A stretch of 24,361 bases of DNA. Source: Bryobacteraceae bacterium (GTDB taxonomy: Bacteria; Acidobacteriota; Terriglobia; Bryobacterales; Bryobacteraceae). The notes under the pieces are model-generated. The model saw only the letters and a program-made list of their open reading frames with translations, was not told the origin of the DNA and ran no database searches. Position 1 is the first letter of the stretch. Each line of letters starts with the position of its first letter. The position numbers and the translations under genes were made by a program. Location of the stretch: positions 1 to 24,361 of the forward strand of contig DASSSG010000213.1 in NCBI GenBank assembly GCA_035708545.1. Direction: 5' to 3'. This document shows positions 1,885-7,230 of the stretch, in pieces.

Positions 1885-2679
1885 GTGGTGCTGGATACCG
1901 CCCTGATCTACGCAATGTGGCAGCACGCACCGTTCGCGAATCTCTGTGTGGGAGACACGGAGGTGCATCTGTGGCTGGTGCCGCTGGCCACTTCATCGGA
2001 AACCCTCGCCCTCGCGAGCGCGTTGTTATCGCTCGAGGAGACGGCTCGCGCGCGGCGGTTCCACCTCGAGAAGGACCGGGCCGCGTGTATTGCCAGCCGC
2101 GCCGTTCTGCGCACGCTGATCGCCCAATACACCGGGATGCCTCCACGTGCAATCGTCTTTGAATACGCGTCGACCGGGAAACCACGACTCGCCGGCGGCC
2201 ACGATCTGCACTTCAATGTCGCCCATTCCGGCGCTCTGGCCCTGTACGGATTTGCGCGTCACTACGAACTGGGAGTCGATATCGAATACGTGCGTGAAAC
2301 GCCCGACCTGGCGGCGATAGCGGACCGGTTTCTCAATGCCGGCGAACGCGGTGATCTCGCAAGCATCTCCGGTCCAGCCAAAACACGGGCATTCTATGAT
2401 TGCTGGACGCGGAAGGAAGCCCTGCTGAAGGCGACCGGGGCCGGCATCTCCGCCGGGCTCGACACCTTTCGTGTCTCCCTTCTGCCGTTTGAGCCGGCGC
2501 GGGTGCTCGCCGGAGACGGCGAATTCGCGCCGGACAGGTGGTCGCTGGTTGATGCGGTGCTCGGCGGCAATTACCGAGGTGCGCTGGCCATTCGCGGATC
2601 GGGATGGCATGTGCGGGCGTGCGCCTGTCGTGACGCGGCGCTCTGCTTGACGCGGGGTATCGCTGAGGATGAGCAGTGA
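1885..2679 (+). CDS. Sfp-type 4'-phosphopantetheinyl transferase
   Basis: Motifs VHLW, R..L..Y, GKP, HFNVAHSG, GVDIE and WTRKEALLKATGAG. The start could be GTG 1885 or ATG 1915. The stop overlaps the next start (GTGA). Confidence 0.93.
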   Translation: MVLDTALIYAMWQHAPFANLCVGDTEVHLWLVPLATSSETLALASALLSLEETARARRFHLEKDRAACIASRAVLRTLIAQYTGMPPRAIVFEYASTGKPRLAGGHDLHFNVAHSGALALYGFARHYELGVDIEYVRETPDLAAIADRFLNAGERGDLASISGPAKTRAFYDCWTRKEALLKATGAGISAGLDTFRVSLLPFEPARVLAGDGEFAPDRWSLVDAVLGGNYRGALAIRGSGWHVRACACRDAALCLTRGIAEDEQ

Positions 2680-4241
2680 AGGACCGCAACCGTCGCTGCG
2701 TGTCCGCGTACCACGAAACGGCAGTCCAGATTGGGGAGACTATCCTCGACTCCGGAGGAAACGCGTTCGACGCATTCGTCGCCTCAACCGCCGCGACTTA
2801 CGTCCTCGGAGAAGGTACTACGAGTCTGGCAGGCTGCTTGGGAGCGCTCACGTACAATGCGCGTACGCGGACGGTGGAGTATCTGGACGCGGATTTCAAT
2901 GAACCCAAAACCCGAAAACGCTGGTGGCGCCGAAGCTCGCCGCCGGGCAACACCGTTCCCGTTCCCGGAGCGGTCGCGGGCCTCGAAGCGCTTTCGAGGA
3001 AGTACGGGCGGTTCAGCTTCGCCGACGCGCTCGCTCCCGCAATCGCGCTGGCGCGCACCGGGTTTCACATCACCAAGTATTACGCTTCAGTGATCAGCGC
3101 GCGCTCACCAGTGCTCCAGCGTAGTGAATACGGCCGCCGGACGTTCTTTCCGGAGGAACGTCCGCTGCGCGAGGGCGATGTCCTCCGCCAGCCCGACGTC
3201 GCTGACTTTCTGACTAATATTGCGCGCTACGGCGCGGAGTACATGTACAACGGCCCGTGGGGCCGGCAGTTCGTCGAAACAGTTCGGGAGCGCGGCGGAT
3301 TGATAAAAAACGATGATCTGGCCGCATACACCGTCGAATGGCGGCAGCCGTGGACGATATCGTACCGGGAGCACGAGGTGTATGCCTGCTCCGGCTTCAC
3401 CTTCGGGGGCCTCTGGACGCTCGTGGCGCTAAAGACGCTGGAGAATATAGCTCCCCCATTTCCGGAGCACTTCTCAACTGCGCCCCAGATGCTGGAAGTC
3501 CTGCTCCGGCTTGCTCGCCAGGTTGATTCGGAAGCGTGGCTGTTCAACTACAAACAGCTCGCGAACCGCGAATACGTTCAATCGCGCCTTGCTCCTGAGT
3601 ACGTCGCCAACATCTGGAGCAGGGTGCAGGCAAGCGGATGCGGAAATTCCACCCGGTCGGGAACCGCGCACAGCTACCACGTCATCGCCATCGACCACGA
3701 AGGGAACGCGGTTACCGGGACAAACACGATCGAATCGGCTCCGTGGGCTGATGGGATCTTCGTGCAGGGCATCCCACTGTCGAATGCGCTGAAAATCCCG
3801 TACGGGACCCGTCCGGGAAAGCGGCGGCTCAATCTGCTGTCAATGCACCTGGTCCTGCGTGACGGCGCATTGCGTTTCGCTATCGGCGCATTCGCGAGTT
3901 CGTTGATCGAAGCGTCTCTCCAGTTCCTCGTAAACCTGATCGATTATCGGCTCAGCCCGGCAGAAGCTGCTCGTCTTCCACGCTTCGGCACCATTCCATT
4001 TGAACTGAACTCCGACGGCGACATCGTCTGGTGCGACACGTCGCGGAACTGGCTCGACAAGCGAGTGAACCCCGAGGTCGTGACCACGCTCGAGAGCCGC
4101 GGTCTGTTATTTCACCAGGAGCATATCGATACGGGACTGGGCAACATCGTCGTGGTCAACGAGGATGGCACCTTGCAGTCCGCGACCACTCCCGTTCAGC
4201 AGTCCGAACCCACACGCGCCAACGTGTCGGAGAACTATTGA
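2676..4241 (+). CDS. Gamma-glutamyltransferase-fold Ntn-hydrolase, atypical (Ser nucleophile, gamma-Glu pocket residues replaced), no signal peptide
   Basis: GGT-family motifs GGNAFDAFVA, VPVPGAVAGLEAL..KYG, LAPAIALARTGF, DLAAY, H..AID.EGNAV..T.TIE, PGKR and PRF. The current stop TGA (4239-4241) lies inside the IS end. Confidence 0.85.
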   Translation: MKDRNRRCVSAYHETAVQIGETILDSGGNAFDAFVASTAATYVLGEGTTSLAGCLGALTYNARTRTVEYLDADFNEPKTRKRWWRRSSPPGNTVPVPGAVAGLEALSRKYGRFSFADALAPAIALARTGFHITKYYASVISARSPVLQRSEYGRRTFFPEERPLREGDVLRQPDVADFLTNIARYGAEYMYNGPWGRQFVETVRERGGLIKNDDLAAYTVEWRQPWTISYREHEVYACSGFTFGGLWTLVALKTLENIAPPFPEHFSTAPQMLEVLLRLARQVDSEAWLFNYKQLANREYVQSRLAPEYVANIWSRVQASGCGNSTRSGTAHSYHVIAIDHEGNAVTGTNTIESAPWADGIFVQGIPLSNALKIPYGTRPGKRRLNLLSMHLVLRDGALRFAIGAFASSLIEASLQFLVNLIDYRLSPAEAARLPRFGTIPFELNSDGDIVWCDTSRNWLDKRVNPEVVTTLESRGLLFHQEHIDTGLGNIVVVNEDGTLQSATTPVQQSEPTRANVSENY

Positions 4242-4262
4242 TCTTCGTAAAATAGGGTGACA
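4238..4262 (+). repeat. IS630 left terminal inverted repeat (25 bp)
   Basis: TTGATCTTCGTAAAATAGGGTGACA versus the reverse complement of the right end, TTGAGGTTCGGATAATACAGTGACA: 19/25 identical by manual alignment. Confidence 0.88.
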
Positions 4263-4292
4263 GATTGGACAGTGCTGTGCGAATATGTGGGT

Positions 4293-4811
4293 ATGAGCCC
4301 CCGCGCGGCGCAGAAGAGGGATTTCGATAAATTAGAGCGGCGGCGGATGGCCGCGGCTAGGTTGCTCAACCGAGGAATCAGCCAGGCAGAAGTCGCGAGG
4401 CGAGTGAAAGTAAGTCGCGAAAGCGTTCGCCGTTGGTCGAATCAGATCCGTCAGCATGGTTCCGCCGCGGCCTTGAAGAAGGCCGGCCGAGCAGGCCGAA
4501 AGCCGGGGTTAACCGCGGCCGACTTGCGGAAACTCGAAGCAATCCTGCGCGCGGGACCGGAGAAAACCGGATTCACCAACGGACTGTGGACGCTCGATCG
4601 CATCGGCGAGGTCATCCGGAACGAGTTTCGGATCGATTATCACGCCGGCCATGTTTGGTGGATCCTGCGCCGGAAGCTCGGCTGGAGTTGTCAGCGGCCG
4701 GTCGGGCGAGCTCGCGAGCGAAACGAGGCAGCGATCCGCCAGTGGAAGGAAGAAACCTGGCCCGCGCTTAAAAAAAAGCCCGGAAAGAGGGCCGGATCAT
4801 CGTCTTCGTAG
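4293..4811 (+). CDS. IS630 transposase OrfA (N-terminal HTH / winged-helix part)
   Basis: HTH SQAEVARRVKVSRESVRRW, GRKP, GLWTLDRIGEVI, WILRRKLGWSCQRP..RARERNE and W.EETWPALKKK. ATG 4293 is preferred because GTG 4257 lies inside the TIR. Confidence 0.88.
   Translation: MSPRAAQKRDFDKLERRRMAAARLLNRGISQAEVARRVKVSRESVRRWSNQIRQHGSAAALKKAGRAGRKPGLTAADLRKLEAILRAGPEKTGFTNGLWTLDRIGEVIRNEFRIDYHAGHVWWILRRKLGWSCQRPVGRARERNEAAIRQWKEETWPALKKKPGKRAGSSSS
4769..4778 (+). promoter_or_regulatory. Programmed frameshift / slippage site T-A8-G
   Basis: An A run at 4770-4777 lies at the OrfA/OrfB junction. A -1 shift joins WPALKK to KARKEGRIIVFVDESG, the usual IS630 arrangement. Confidence 0.8.
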
Positions 4812-5308
4812 ACGAGAGCGGCGTCAGTCAGCGTCCGCATCGGGTGCGTACGTGGTCGAAACGGGGCGTGACGCCGATTCTGCAGCACCAGTTCAATTGG
4901 GACAATCTGTCGGTTGCCGCCGGAATCACGCTGTGGCAGTTCTACTTCCGGATGTACGACGGAACCATGGGCAAGGAGGACGTCCTCGATTTCGTCCGCC
5001 ATCTCAACAAACAGATCACGCAGCCCATTCTGCTGATCTGGGATCGTCTTCCCGGACACCGCAGCCGACTGGTCCAGGACTATCTCGCCAGCTTGCACGG
5101 CAAGATCGAGGCGTTCTATCTGCCCGCTTACGCTCCTGAGTTGCATCCGGCCGAGTACATCTGGGCCCACCTGAAACAGCATGAACTGGCTAACTTCTGT
5201 CCACGCGACCTCTGGAGCCTGTCAGCTGAAGCGCGCTCGGCACTCACCTCCATGCAGCGTCGTCACACGATTGTTACCGCCTGCTGGAAACAGGCTTCTT
5301 TGTTCTAA
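4775..5308 (+). CDS. IS630 transposase OrfB (DDE catalytic domain), reached by -1 frameshift; fused product about 338 aa
   Basis: The -1 frame reads KARKEGRIIVFVDESG...RTWSKRGVTP, then LIWDRLPGH and YAPELHPAEYIWAHLK. These supply D, D and E. The first Asp lies upstream of the ORF-track start at 4844. Confidence 0.88.
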   Translation, partial: KARKEGRIIVFVDESGVSQRPHRVRTWSKRGVTPILQHQFNWDNLSVAAGITLWQFYFRMYDGTMGKEDVLDFVRHLNKQITQPILLIWDRLPGHRSRLVQDYLASLHGKIEAFYLPAYAPELHPAEYIWAHLKQHELANFCPRDLWSLSAEARSALTSMQRRHTIVTACWKQASLF

Positions 5309-5310
5309 CT

Positions 5311-5335
5311 TGTCACTGTATTATCCGAACCTCAA
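5311..5335 (-). repeat. IS630 right terminal inverted repeat (25 bp)
   Basis: TGTCACTGTATTATCCGAACCTCAA, complementary to the left end at 19/25 positions and followed by TA. Confidence 0.88.
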
Positions 5336-7230
5336 TAGATTTTACCGGCGCAATCGCGGGGAATCGCCAGACTGAGGTACTGGTCTCCGTCACGGGCCAT
5401 GATCCTGAGCTGCACCATGCGATCAAGCCAGGTCCTGAGTTCCGCGCCGCCAGGACCGTTGCGCTCGCAGGCGTCGCTATTCAGTGTTTCAATCGAAACG
5501 AATGCAGGATTTTCGTGACCGTTGCGCAGCATCCGCTCGATCGCGACCACCGGGCGCGTCTGGTCGCAGAACTCGTAGACTCGCTTCTCCCAGCCTTGCA
5601 ACTGTGTAGACCGCTGGACCGGATCAGGGCGCATATCGCGGATCATCAGGAGATCCTCGCTCAGCGCATCTGACACCAGGGACGCGCCGCCAGCGTGGGC
5701 CTCGCGCCAGGCGGCAACCCGGTTTTCGATCGGACCTATATAGGCAGACGTGTCCACAGTGTCGGCGTAGTCGTAATCGAAGAAATAAGCGATGTCGGAC
5801 AAATCCGACTCGGGCAGGGGATACAGATATTTGTAGATTTCCATGGGGCGGACTTTCACCATCCCCAGCGAGGCGGGATCCTGAAAGTACGGACTGAAGC
5901 GGTCCAGGCGGATCCTGCCGGTGCCCTCCGGCGGCGGCAGGTGCGCCAGGCACTCCAGCAGCGGCATCATCTCTTCGTAATCGCGAGCGCTTTCGCCGGG
6001 AAACCCGTACAGGAAATTCCAGGTCGGCCGCACGCCGAATTGCCGGCACCACTTGAGCAGCTGCACGTTTTGCAGGGGCGAAACGCCTTTACGCATCAGG
6101 TTGAGAATGTGTTGATGGAGACTCTCGATGCCGGGCTGAATCCATGTGATGCCGGCATCCGCGAGCAGACGGACCTGTTCCTTTGTCAGATTCGCCTTCA
6201 CCTCATAGAAGAAGGTCAGATCCAGCTTTCGGCGCTTCAGCTCGGGCAGAAGATCGCGGAAGTACTGCATGTCAATGATGTTGTCTACTGTCGCGATCTC
6301 ATGCAGCGGGTAATGCGAAACCAGATGATCGAGTTCGGCCAGTACCCGGTCCTTGCTCTTCGCACGATAATGCATCGTCTCCCGGTTCAGGCCGCAAAAT
6401 GTGCAGTGATGTTTGGCGCCCCACCAGCAGCCGCGCGAGGTTTCCATCTGGAGCTTGAGCGGAATTTCCCAGGGAATCGAGCTGTGCTCAAGCTGCAGGA
6501 AGTAATCATGGAATTCCGGAAAGGACAGCGCATCCAGATCCTCGACGGCCCGCGGTGGTGCCGCGAAGACGCTGCCGTTTCCGTTACGGTAAATCAACCC
6601 GGGAATATCGTCCACCGGCCGGCGATGAAGGATGCGGTCCACAAACTCCGGAAAACTTTGGTCCGACTCGCCGGAGAACACGTAGTCCAGAAACGGGAAG
6701 CAGCGGTGCAGTCCGAGGCCCATGCGGTCCTCGCAATTGGCTCCGCCCATGACGGTTGTCTTGGCCGGGTACCACTGTTTCACCGCGCAGGCCAGAGCGA
6801 GCGACGGCAGATTCTGCTCGAACGTGGACGTGAAGCCCACGATTGAATACCGATCCCATGCCGTGGACGCGAGGCAGTAGTCCAGGAACGGTTCCACGAA
6901 CCGCCGCAGCCACACCACGGAATTCAGAACCTCCGGCTCGACAAACCGCTCGCCGCGCAGATAGCGAATGTAGGCGTTGCCGTCCGGTATCTGACCGCGA
7001 AACATATGGTCAGCGAATACCCATTCGCCGATGAAAAGGGTGTGGCTCATATATTCGCTGACCCATTCGTAATACGGCGCGCCGACCCAGTCCGCGAACT
7101 CGATATTGAAGTTCCGGATGTCGCATGGGATTCCGCGCCGGCGTACCGCGGACTGCAGGTTGCCGATTCCGATCGGAGGGCGATCCACGCCGGCGAACGG
7201 CATGTTGATCAGCAGGACGCCACCACTCAT
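5332..7230 (-). CDS. Cobalamin-dependent (class B) radical SAM enzyme, RiPP-maturation type (TIGR03975 / PoyB-PoyC-like), probable C-methyltransferase
   Basis: N-terminal B12-binding region (MPFA..RPPIGIG; VGFTSTFEQN...VMGGANC). ETSRGCWWGAKHHCTFCGLN gives CX7CX2C (Cys codons 6427-29, 6403-05, 6394-96). Also DNIIDM, FYEVKANL, IQPGIESL, WNFLYGFPGE, RLDRFSPYF and C-terminal YLSLA. RBS GGAGGT lies 6 nt before the ATG. The stop lies in the IS right end. Confidence 0.92.
   Translation of the reverse strand: MSGGVLLINMPFAGVDRPPIGIGNLQSAVRRRGIPCDIRNFNIEFADWVGAPYYEWVSEYMSHTLFIGEWVFADHMFRGQIPDGNAYIRYLRGERFVEPEVLNSVVWLRRFVEPFLDYCLASTAWDRYSIVGFTSTFEQNLPSLALACAVKQWYPAKTTVMGGANCEDRMGLGLHRCFPFLDYVFSGESDQSFPEFVDRILHRRPVDDIPGLIYRNGNGSVFAAPPRAVEDLDALSFPEFHDYFLQLEHSSIPWEIPLKLQMETSRGCWWGAKHHCTFCGLNRETMHYRAKSKDRVLAELDHLVSHYPLHEIATVDNIIDMQYFRDLLPELKRRKLDLTFFYEVKANLTKEQVRLLADAGITWIQPGIESLHQHILNLMRKGVSPLQNVQLLKWCRQFGVRPTWNFLYGFPGESARDYEEMMPLLECLAHLPPPEGTGRIRLDRFSPYFQDPASLGMVKVRPMEIYKYLYPLPESDLSDIAYFFDYDYADTVDTSAYIGPIENRVAAWREAHAGGASLVSDALSEDLLMIRDMRPDPVQRSTQLQGWEKRVYEFCDQTRPVVAIERMLRNGHENPAFVSIETLNSDACERNGPGGAELRTWLDRMVQLRIMARDGDQYLSLAIPRDCAGKIY

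What the first reader, a model, noticed from the sequence alone, without database searches (positions are those of the whole stretch)
4233..5340. IS630 inserted into the shared stop codons of two convergent genes, and its ends rebuild both stops
Seen: removing 4238-5337 (the element plus one TA) leaves ...GAG AAC TAG ATT TT... On the plus strand the GGT-like gene ended E-N-TAG. On the minus strand the radical SAM gene ended K-I-TAG. Both TAGs overlapped in one CTAG palindrome. Each IS end begins TTGA after the TA, so both genes now read TAT TGA, gaining one Tyr and then stopping. Known: IS630 targets CTAG and duplicates TA. Inference: this is a nearly neutral landing site inside a dense cluster, and TA-TTGA termini may be a general stop-codon-restoring strategy for this IS subgroup.
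Basis: partly seen in the sequence, partly recalled or inferred. Interest (0 to 1): 0.7.

Follow-up and report, generated by a model that had tools for sequence, protein, structure and literature searches.

The report
IS630 element sitting in two stop codons
A 1.1-kb jumping gene of the well-known IS630 family landed in the four bases CTAG that served as the stop signal of two facing genes; its ends supply new stops, so each gene only gains one tyrosine. This is a neat but ordinary by-product of the family's target taste, not a special strategy.

Summary
A 1098-bp IS630-family element (4238-5335) lies between two TA copies (4236-37, 5336-37), with C before and G after. Removing it with one TA gives GAG AAC TAG ATT. 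That one CTAG holds the TAG stops of the GGT-like gene (+) and the radical SAM gene (-). Both element ends read TTGA, so both genes now end TAT TGA.

The closest relatives' proteins (94% and 97% identical) end exactly one residue earlier, at ...SEN and ...SKI, as predicted. I could not obtain the IS-free junction DNA, and those two genes lie on separate contigs in that assembly.

The element looks intact. It has 19/27 inverted repeats, HTH plus DDE halves covering the whole IS630 profile, and a conserved A8 slippery site.

The generalisation fails as stated:
- TA|nTGA ends are general in this subgroup, and the target is YTAR (TAA or TAG on either strand).
- Of 114 independent insertions in three related genomes, 8 (7.0%) are in stop codons, against 5.6% of 2288 background YTAR sites (odds ratio 1.27, p=0.53).
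- Against intergenic sites the odds ratio is 0.95. Coding sites are about two-fold depleted.

Stop codons are therefore tolerated landing sites, not preferred ones. The scan recorded a similar case before in a haloarchaeon (e1-891443).

The parts
2676..4241 (+). GGT-like (gamma-glutamyltranspeptidase family) gene. The last two codons, TAT TGA (4236-4241), are built from the target TA plus the element's first four bases.
   Evidence: ORF list; Pfam PF01019 E=8e-69; 94%-identical relative P0121 is one residue shorter and ends ...MSEN
4236..4237 (.). Left copy of the duplicated target TA (preceded by C 4235)
   Evidence: sequence
4238..5335 (+). IS630-family insertion sequence, 1098 bp, single copy in this draft genome
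   Evidence: similarity of relative contigs in run X2 stops exactly at 4237 and resumes at 5336 (records 11 and 12)
4238..4264 (+). Left terminal inverted repeat, starts TTGA; closes all three incoming reading frames within 8 codons
   Evidence: 19/27 match to the right end; first stops after 1, 5 and 7 codons
4293..4811 (+). Transposase orfA (HTH DNA-binding part); matches positions 1-134 of the IS630 profile
   Evidence: Pfam HTH_33/HTH_23; NF033545 87.9 bits
4770..4778 (+). A8-G run containing the in-frame slippery heptamer A_AAA_AAG (4772-4778). A -1 shift, or transcriptional slippage, joins orfA to orfB.
   Evidence: TTAAAAAAAAGCCC is identical in four elements that are only 67-81% identical overall
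4778..5308 (+). Transposase orfB in the -1 frame (DDE catalytic part, starts ...IVFVDES); fused product 338 aa
   Evidence: Pfam DDE_3 E=1.5e-19; NF033545 positions 140-298, 105.4 bits (cut-off 100); D174, D251, E288
5309..5335 (-). Right terminal inverted repeat, reads TTGA inward
5336..5337 (.). Right copy of the duplicated target TA (followed by G 5338)
   Evidence: sequence
5332..7230 (-). RiPP-type B12/radical SAM methyltransferase gene. The last two codons, TAT TGA, are built from the target TA plus the element's last four bases.
   Evidence: ORF list; Pfam PF04055; 97%-identical relative P0001 is one residue shorter and ends ...CASKI

Best explanation
An intact IS630/Tc1-mariner-type insertion sequence transposed by cut-and-paste into the TA of a CTAG and duplicated the TA. 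That CTAG was the overlapping TAG stop of two convergent genes. One is the GGT-like gene that ends the PPTase-GGT operon; the other is the radical SAM methyltransferase gene that ends the NRPS-PKS operon. Each end of the element begins TTGA, so the split stop TA|G becomes TAT TGA on both strands. Each protein gains one C-terminal tyrosine and nothing else, and neither gene has a downstream gene to suffer polarity. The insertion is therefore close to neutral and survived. The stop rebuilding is a mechanical by-product of two fixed properties of this IS subgroup: a YTAR target (which is TAA or TAG on either strand) and conserved nTGA termini. It is not a targeting strategy. Stop codons are hit in proportion to their share of YTAR sites and are tolerated like intergenic sites, whereas coding sites are purged. 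Shown: the anatomy, family membership, conservation of the termini, the relatives' protein ends, and the lack of enrichment. Inferred: that the two flanks were contiguous before insertion, that the element is active, and that the extra Tyr is harmless.
For: Anatomy and frames. Family: Pfam HTH + DDE_3; the NCBIfam IS630 profile is covered 1-134 and 140-298 by the two frames. The A8 slippery site is conserved in four diverged, multi-copy elements, so the two-ORF layout is programmed and not a defect. The closest relatives' proteins are exactly one residue shorter and lack the Tyr (P0001 631 aa ...SKI, P0121 520 aa ...SEN). Contigs of a 96-97% identical relative in run X2 lose similarity exactly at 4237 and regain it at 5336. 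X1 contigs bridge both junctions. Related elements in G057, G059 and G012 all have TA|[T/C]TGA ends and YTAR targets. 8 of 114 insertions sit in a gene's stop codon, against 128 of 2288 background sites: odds ratio 1.27, p=0.53; against intergenic 0.95; CDS against intergenic 0.52, p=0.001; stable over three gene-call thresholds. 4-5 of 75 further ends in other genomes close a long coding ORF in the TAT-TGA frame, a rate similar to background. In the window's own genome 24% of the 393 classified CTAG sites touch a stop codon and 1% are double stops; the reconstructed site was called a double stop by the same caller. TA duplication and CTAG preference are established for the family (PMC2170065 and its references to Tenzen 1990/1991).
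Against: The IS-free junction was never seen as DNA. In the only close relative assembly (ENA ERZ1758598) the two genes lie on separate contigs. The GGT contig stops 116 nt after its stop codon. The radical SAM contig carries a 156-aa ORF call on the other strand 167 nt past its stop, which does not fit the GGT gene. A 2-bp invariant duplication cannot by itself prove that the two flanks were adjacent. The gene calls behind the enrichment test come from my own crude codon-usage caller (77-80% coverage). The background is the +/-5 kb around IS copies, not whole genomes. The elements tested are only 67-81% identical to this one. With 114 sites, an enrichment below about 2.4-fold cannot be excluded.
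Confidence: 0.78

Rival explanations
1. Adaptive design. The subgroup's TA|TTGA termini and its TAR-containing target have been selected so that insertions into TAA/TAG stop codons regenerate a stop at once, giving the element a class of harmless landing sites that it favours.
For: nTGA termini are conserved across elements that are only 67-81% identical inside. The target YTAR equals a TAA/TAG stop on both strands. Stop-codon insertions are not depleted relative to intergenic ones, while CDS insertions are. All three incoming frames are closed within 8 codons at both ends.
Against: There is no enrichment of stop-codon targets over their share of YTAR sites (7.0% v 5.6%, p=0.53; a similar rate). 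The outermost bases of transposon ends are generally conserved because the transposase needs them for cleavage and strand transfer (established for Tc1/mariner/ISY100, PMC2170065), which explains the conservation without any stop function. Stop codons add only about 11% to the non-coding YTAR sites (128 v 1014), so the selective gain would be small.
Confidence: 0.1
2. The two flanks were not neighbours before. Two copies of the element had each inserted at a TAR stop codon of a different locus, and recombination between the copies joined the PPTase-GGT unit to the end of the NRPS-PKS cluster. Every copy is flanked by Y-TA...TA-R, so the hybrid looks like a simple insertion.
For: The duplication is only TA and is invariant. 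In the relative assembly the genes are on different contigs, and the ORF called downstream of the radical SAM gene does not fit GGT. Amino-acid identity to the relative differs between the two genes (97% v 94%).
Against: It needs two independent stop-codon hits (each a few percent) plus a recombination, and the draft genome holds only one copy. A PPTase next to an NRPS-PKS cluster is a functionally expected native neighbour. Contig breaks in that relative assembly may be due to strain mixture or low depth; X2 contigs break every few hundred bases.
Confidence: 0.1
3. Assembly or binning artefact: the element was placed between two unrelated contig ends by the assembler.
For: The genome is a fragmented MAG (843 contigs, 77% complete), and IS elements often cause misjoins.
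Against: Independent Logan contigs of run X1 cross both junctions with no differences (records 3 and 4), though X1 is probably the source sample. The element is single-copy in the assembly, so there is no repeat to misjoin through.
Confidence: 0.02

Closest known systems
IS630 of Shigella sonnei (prototype of the IS630 family; Tenzen et al. 1990, Tenzen & Ohtsubo 1991, cited in PMC2170065)
   Same: About 1.1 kb, terminal inverted repeats, DDE transposase with N-terminal HTH domains, insertion at TA within CTAG with TA duplication.
   Different: Here the transposase is read from two frames joined at an A8 run. The subgroup's target is the looser YTAR. No near-identical copy was found in the genomes searched.
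IS870 of Agrobacterium vitis and ISMt1 (Fournier et al. 1993, as cited in PMC13630536)
   Same: IS630-type elements whose link with CTAG involves a stop codon: the TAG of the target is used as a translational stop.
   Different: In IS870 the target's TAG ends the element's own transposase ORF. Here the transposase ends inside the element (TAA 5306-5308), and it is the host genes whose stops are replaced by the element's termini.
ISY100 (Synechocystis) and Tc1/mariner elements (PMC2170065)
   Same: Cut-and-paste mechanism, TA target, TA duplication, transposase alone sufficient; this is the mechanism assumed here.
   Different: ISY100 has a single transposase ORF and little context preference beyond TA.
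IS630-family elements with programmed recoding, e.g. the Roseiflexus IS630-like element (transcriptional realignment; PMC5009743)
   Same: orfA and orfB are fused through slippage on an A run.
   Different: Whether slippage here is ribosomal (-1 at A_AAA_AAG) or transcriptional was not tested.
Earlier scan cases: e1-891443 (IS630 element at the TA shared by two convergent stop codons in a haloarchaeon) and e1-2685999 (IS1380-type MITEs on YTAR stop codons)
   Same: The same picture: TA/YTAR-targeting elements parked on stop codons, explained by target taste plus selection.
   Different: Different hosts and element lineages. Here the no-enrichment test was run on 114 copies.

Membership tests
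IS630 family (IS630/Tc1/mariner superfamily) | Transposase matches the curated IS630-family profile | tested here: met
   NCBIfam NF033545: orfA covers profile 1-134 (87.9 bits) and orfB covers 140-298 (105.4 bits, cut-off 100); Pfam DDE_3 plus HTH_33/HTH_23
IS630 family (IS630/Tc1/mariner superfamily) | Insertion at TA with 2-bp TA duplication | tested here: met
   TA at 4236-37 and 5336-37. 111 of 114 unique related copies are flanked by TA on both sides within YTAR. Contiguity of the flanks before insertion is inferred, not seen.
IS630 family (IS630/Tc1/mariner superfamily) | Terminal inverted repeats bounding a ~1.1-kb element | tested here: met
   1098 bp; ends match 19/27; the same end motif occurs in 92 stretches of other genomes
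IS630 family (IS630/Tc1/mariner superfamily) | DDE catalytic triad with a short D-to-E spacing (about 34-37 residues) | tested here: met
   D174 (VFVDES), D251 (LIWDRL) and E288 (HPAEYIW) in the fused product, with 36 residues between the second D and E. The residues were assigned by motif inspection within the DDE_3 match, not by structure.
IS630 family (IS630/Tc1/mariner superfamily) | Preference for CTAG around the TA (a feature of IS630 itself, not of all members) | tested here: inconclusive
   This copy sits in CTAG. Related copies use CTAG, CTAA/TTAG and TTAA, i.e. YTAR.
IS630 family (IS630/Tc1/mariner superfamily) | Transposition activity | not testable with these tools
   Only indirect: intact ends and ORFs here; relatives with 14 to more than 50 copies at 99-100% identity
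   8/114 v 128/2288, odds ratio 1.27, p=0.53; against intergenic odds ratio 0.95

The most novel reading that the evidence does not exclude
The YTAR target taste and the conserved nTGA termini of this IS630 subgroup are co-adapted. Together they make every TAA/TAG stop codon, on either strand, a harmless landing site (+1 Tyr, then stop). Closure of all three incoming frames within 8 codons also shields the element from host translation. This would be a harm-minimising design that helps such elements reach 50 or more copies in Bryobacterales genomes.
Probability: 0.1. Interest if true: 0.5.

Novelty: new member of a known kind. Interest (0 to 1): 0.25.

Why it matters
The practical value is small. 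The element is an intact, previously unnamed IS630-family member inside an NRPS-PKS/radical SAM gene cluster of an uncultured soil acidobacterium. Both flanking genes should be annotated as intact, each one Tyr longer than in relatives, and not as disrupted.

The case shows cleanly why TA/YTAR-targeting elements are often found parked on stop codons:
- The target motif is itself a stop codon on both strands.
- In this genome 24% of the very rare CTAG sites lie on stops.
- The element's ends close the frame at once.

The test run here argues against reading such cases as a targeting strategy.

Tried and rejected
1. DNA search with the element plus 1-kb flanks in 60 related genomes found only about 67%-identical IS interiors and no flank match, so no empty site.

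2. The look-up of encoding contigs for the two close relative proteins returned gene tables but no DNA, because the sample file is too large.

3. The third member of the radical SAM protein cluster (P0242) was an N-terminal fragment, useless for the junction.

4. A 'shorter proteins' search with the GGT C-terminal part, meant to fish Logan contig fragments, found nothing.

5. An exact-pattern scan of JGI metagenome contigs for the predicted junction (TCNGAGAACTAGATTTTAC) gave one hit, unrelated by BLAST and so a chance match.

6. Read laying listed no joint 4237->5338 in any run. The 32- and 27-letter loose tails of X2 records 11 and 12 were not printed, so they could be neither read nor assigned. 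Runs X3 and X4 hold only small shares. This is no evidence for or against an empty allele.

8. Contexts of 55-60% identical radical SAM homologues (P0009, P0011, P0013) are YcaO/ThiF/nitroreductase RiPP clusters without GGT, so they say nothing about the ancestral junction.

9. The element's interior has no close match among the 80 loci that share its end motif; the best hits are 75% over 225 nt and 84% over 68 nt.

10. I considered whether the TTGA ends form a -35-like promoter box but found no suitably spaced -10, and did not pursue it.
Full report
**1. Observation**

The window reads ...GAG AAC TAT TGA... at 4230-4241 and, on the other strand...AAA ATC TAT TGA at 5343-5332.
- The ORF list gives a 521-aa ORF 2676..4241 (+) and a 632-aa ORF 5332..7230 (-).
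- Pfam names them gamma-glutamyltranspeptidase family (E=8e-69) and radical SAM (E=9e-20).
- Neighbours are a PPTase upstream of the GGT-like gene, and an NRPS and a 185-aa ORF upstream of the radical SAM gene.
- Between the two genes lie 1098 bp (4238-5335) flanked by TA (4236-37, 5336-37), with C at 4235 and G at 5338.
- Deleting 4238-5337 gives GAG AAC TAG ATT TT. The single CTAG carries a TAG in the frame of each gene.

The two rebuilt stops are one event, not two. The ends are inverted repeats (19/27) and both genes used the same TA, so what happens at one end must happen at the other.

**2. What the insert is**

- The first frame (4293-4811) carries HTH_33/HTH_23 domains. The -1 frame (4778-5308) carries DDE_3.
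- Against NCBIfam the two pieces cover positions 1-134 and 140-298 of the 299-position IS630-family profile, with 87.9 and 105.4 bits (cut-off 100).
- They are joined at an A8-G run whose heptamer A_AAA_AAG (4772-4778) is in the zero frame. The -1 frame continues ...GRIIVFVDES, the first catalytic Asp.
- The same TTAAAAAAAAGCCC motif and the same two-frame layout occur in related elements of three other genomes. These are only 67-81% identical overall but are present in 14 to more than 50 copies at 99-100% identity.
- The frameshift is therefore programmed. Frameshifting and transcriptional slippage are both on record for the IS630 family (PMC5009743).
- The fused product is 338 aa, with D174, D251 and E288.

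The element is single-copy in this draft genome, a 77%-complete MAG of 843 contigs. Logan contigs of run X1 cross both junctions without a difference (records 3 and 4). X1 is probably the source sample, so this rules out a scaffolding artefact but is not independent occurrence.

**3. State before insertion**

No genome of the same genus is held, and the flanks were not found at DNA level in 60 relatives. The protein database holds one close relative of each gene, both from ENA assembly ERZ1758598.
- P0001 is 97% identical, 631 aa, and ends ...DCASKI.
- P0121 is 94% identical, 520 aa, and ends ...ANMSEN.
- The window's proteins end ...DCAGKIY and ...ANVSENY.
- Both relatives stop exactly where the reconstructed CTAG predicts, and both lack the Tyr.
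- In run X2, contigs of a 96-97% identical strain carry the same V-to-L and Q-to-H changes as P0121. They lose similarity exactly after 4237 and regain it exactly at 5336 (records 11 and 12).

These results support the element boundaries and the one-residue extension.

The junction itself was not shown. No DNA could be fetched for ERZ1758598.
- There the two genes are on different contigs.
- The GGT contig ends 116 nt after its stop.
- The radical SAM contig shows a 156-aa ORF call on the other strand 167 nt beyond its stop. This does not fit the GGT gene as it stands in the window.

So that strain may be polymorphic at the site, carry something else there, or be arranged differently. The duplication is only TA, and every copy of this subgroup is flanked Y-TA...TA-R. 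A recombinant between two copies would therefore look the same. I rate that rival at about 0.1, because it needs two stop-codon hits plus a recombination in a genome with one visible copy.

**4. The generalisation**

Related elements in 11 loci from relatives all begin TA|TTGA, with single ends reading CTGA or GTGA. I then collected copies from three nearly complete genomes with 5 kb of flank on each side: 57 in G057, 52 in G059 and 14 in G012.

All have TA|[T/C]TGA ends. After removing duplicates there are 114 independent sites. Counted over all copies before that step, the targets are:

| Target | Copies |
|---|---|
| CTAG | 32 |
| CTAA/TTAG | 59 |
| TTAA | 25 |

The target is therefore YTAR, which is TAA or TAG on both strands.

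I excised each copy in silico and called genes with a simple codon log-odds caller trained on each genome (coverage 77-80%). I then classed each target, and every other YTAR site in the same 1.04 Mb.

| Class | Targets (114) | Background (2288) |
|---|---|---|
| Stop codon | 8 (7.0%) | 128 (5.6%) |
| Intergenic | 67 | 1014 |
| Coding | 39 | 1146 |

| Fisher test | Odds ratio | p |
|---|---|---|
| Stop v rest | 1.27 | 0.53 |
| Stop v intergenic | 0.95 | 1.0 |
| Coding v intergenic | 0.52 | 0.001 |

The picture holds at gene-score thresholds 10, 25 and 50.

A second, cruder sample came from a scan of GTDB representative genomes for the window-type end motif. It gave 92 stretches in Acidobacteriota (Bryobacterales, Terriglobia), Verrucomicrobiia, Planctomycetota and others.
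- Of 75 unique ends with enough flank, 5 close a long coding-like ORF in the TAT-TGA frame. One of these lacks a proper TA.
- Only 1 interrupts a long ORF in another frame.

Stop-codon insertions thus recur, but at about the rate at which stop codons occupy YTAR sites. They behave like intergenic insertions, while coding insertions are lost.

In the window's own genome the same caller classed 393 CTAG sites. Of these, 94 (24%) touch a stop codon and 4 (1%) are double stops. Over all YTAR sites, 23 of 4002 are double stops. The reconstructed site at 4236 is one of them. A double stop is a rare landing place, but it is a single event picked out after the fact.

**5. Mechanism**

Cut-and-paste transposition into TA with TA duplication is established for this superfamily, and CTAG preference for IS630 itself (PMC2170065 and its references).
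- Given a YTAR target and nTGA ends, any hit on a TAA/TAG stop yields TA[T/C] TGA: one Tyr, then a stop.
- Here both genes are last in their operons, so there is no polarity. Their C-terminal tails are not conserved among homologues.
- The insertion should be close to neutral.
- Conservation of the outermost bases is most simply explained by transposase recognition and cleavage.
- Both ends also close the other two incoming frames within 5-8 codons. This may limit host translation running into the element, but such AT-rich ends would often do so by chance.

**6. Comparison and verdict**

The element meets every testable criterion of the IS630 family. The known link between this family, CTAG and stop codons is IS870/ISMt1, where the target TAG ends the element's own ORF (PMC13630536, citing Fournier 1993). 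Here it is the host genes that borrow a stop from the element.

The scan has recorded the same picture before in a haloarchaeon (e1-891443), and YTAR-targeting MITEs parked on stop codons (e1-2685999). My tests agree with their verdicts.

This is a new member of a known kind and a tidy, near-neutral insertion. The proposed strategy is not supported. Interest is low to moderate.

Noticed in passing
whole genome G000 (window = contig C213): CTAG is extremely rare: 428 sites in 4.7 Mb, against 15,965 expected from base composition (ratio 0.027) and 2,108 from a second-order Markov model (ratio 0.20). The other YTAR words are also depleted (0.54-0.68). By my crude gene calls, 24% of CTAG sites lie on stop codons, and TAG makes up about 25% of stops.
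   Followed up: partly
window 4770-4778; the same motif in elements of G012, G057, G059: The slippery motif TTAAAAAAAAGCCC is identical in four IS630-type elements that are only 67-81% identical overall. This points to conserved programmed recoding (a -1 frameshift or transcriptional slippage). The downstream predicted hairpins are not conserved.
   Followed up: partly
window 4236-4264 and 5309-5337: Reading inward from either end, all three frames hit a stop within 1, 5-6 and 8 codons. This may block host translation entering the element, or may just reflect the AT-rich ends.
   Followed up: no
G057:C1 and G059:C1-C4 (loci L045-L124): There are massive expansions of related IS630-type elements in two Bryobacterales genomes: at least 57 and 52 copies within the fetched stretches alone, and 295 and 349 first-look candidates.
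   Followed up: partly
ENA ERZ1758598 contigs encoding P0001 and P0121 (no DNA held): The close relative's assembly breaks at this very junction. The GGT contig ends 116 nt past its stop, so its last 119 letters begin at the TA. That would fit a k=119 assembly graph branching at the TA, from either a polymorphic site or a repeat. The radical SAM contig has an unexplained 156-aa ORF call on the opposite strand.
   Followed up: no
run X3, record 23, laid on window 5270-5339: A soil metagenome contig carries an element end about 93% identical to this element's right end (5 differences in 70 letters). It is followed by TA-GA and then unlike sequence, so it looks like a closely related copy at another TAG-type site.
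   Followed up: no
window 5332-7230 and loci L231, L232: The nearest homologues of the radical SAM methyltransferase outside the one close relative (55-60% identity) sit in YcaO/ThiF/nitroreductase RiPP clusters. Here the gene closes an NRPS-PKS operon.
   Followed up: no
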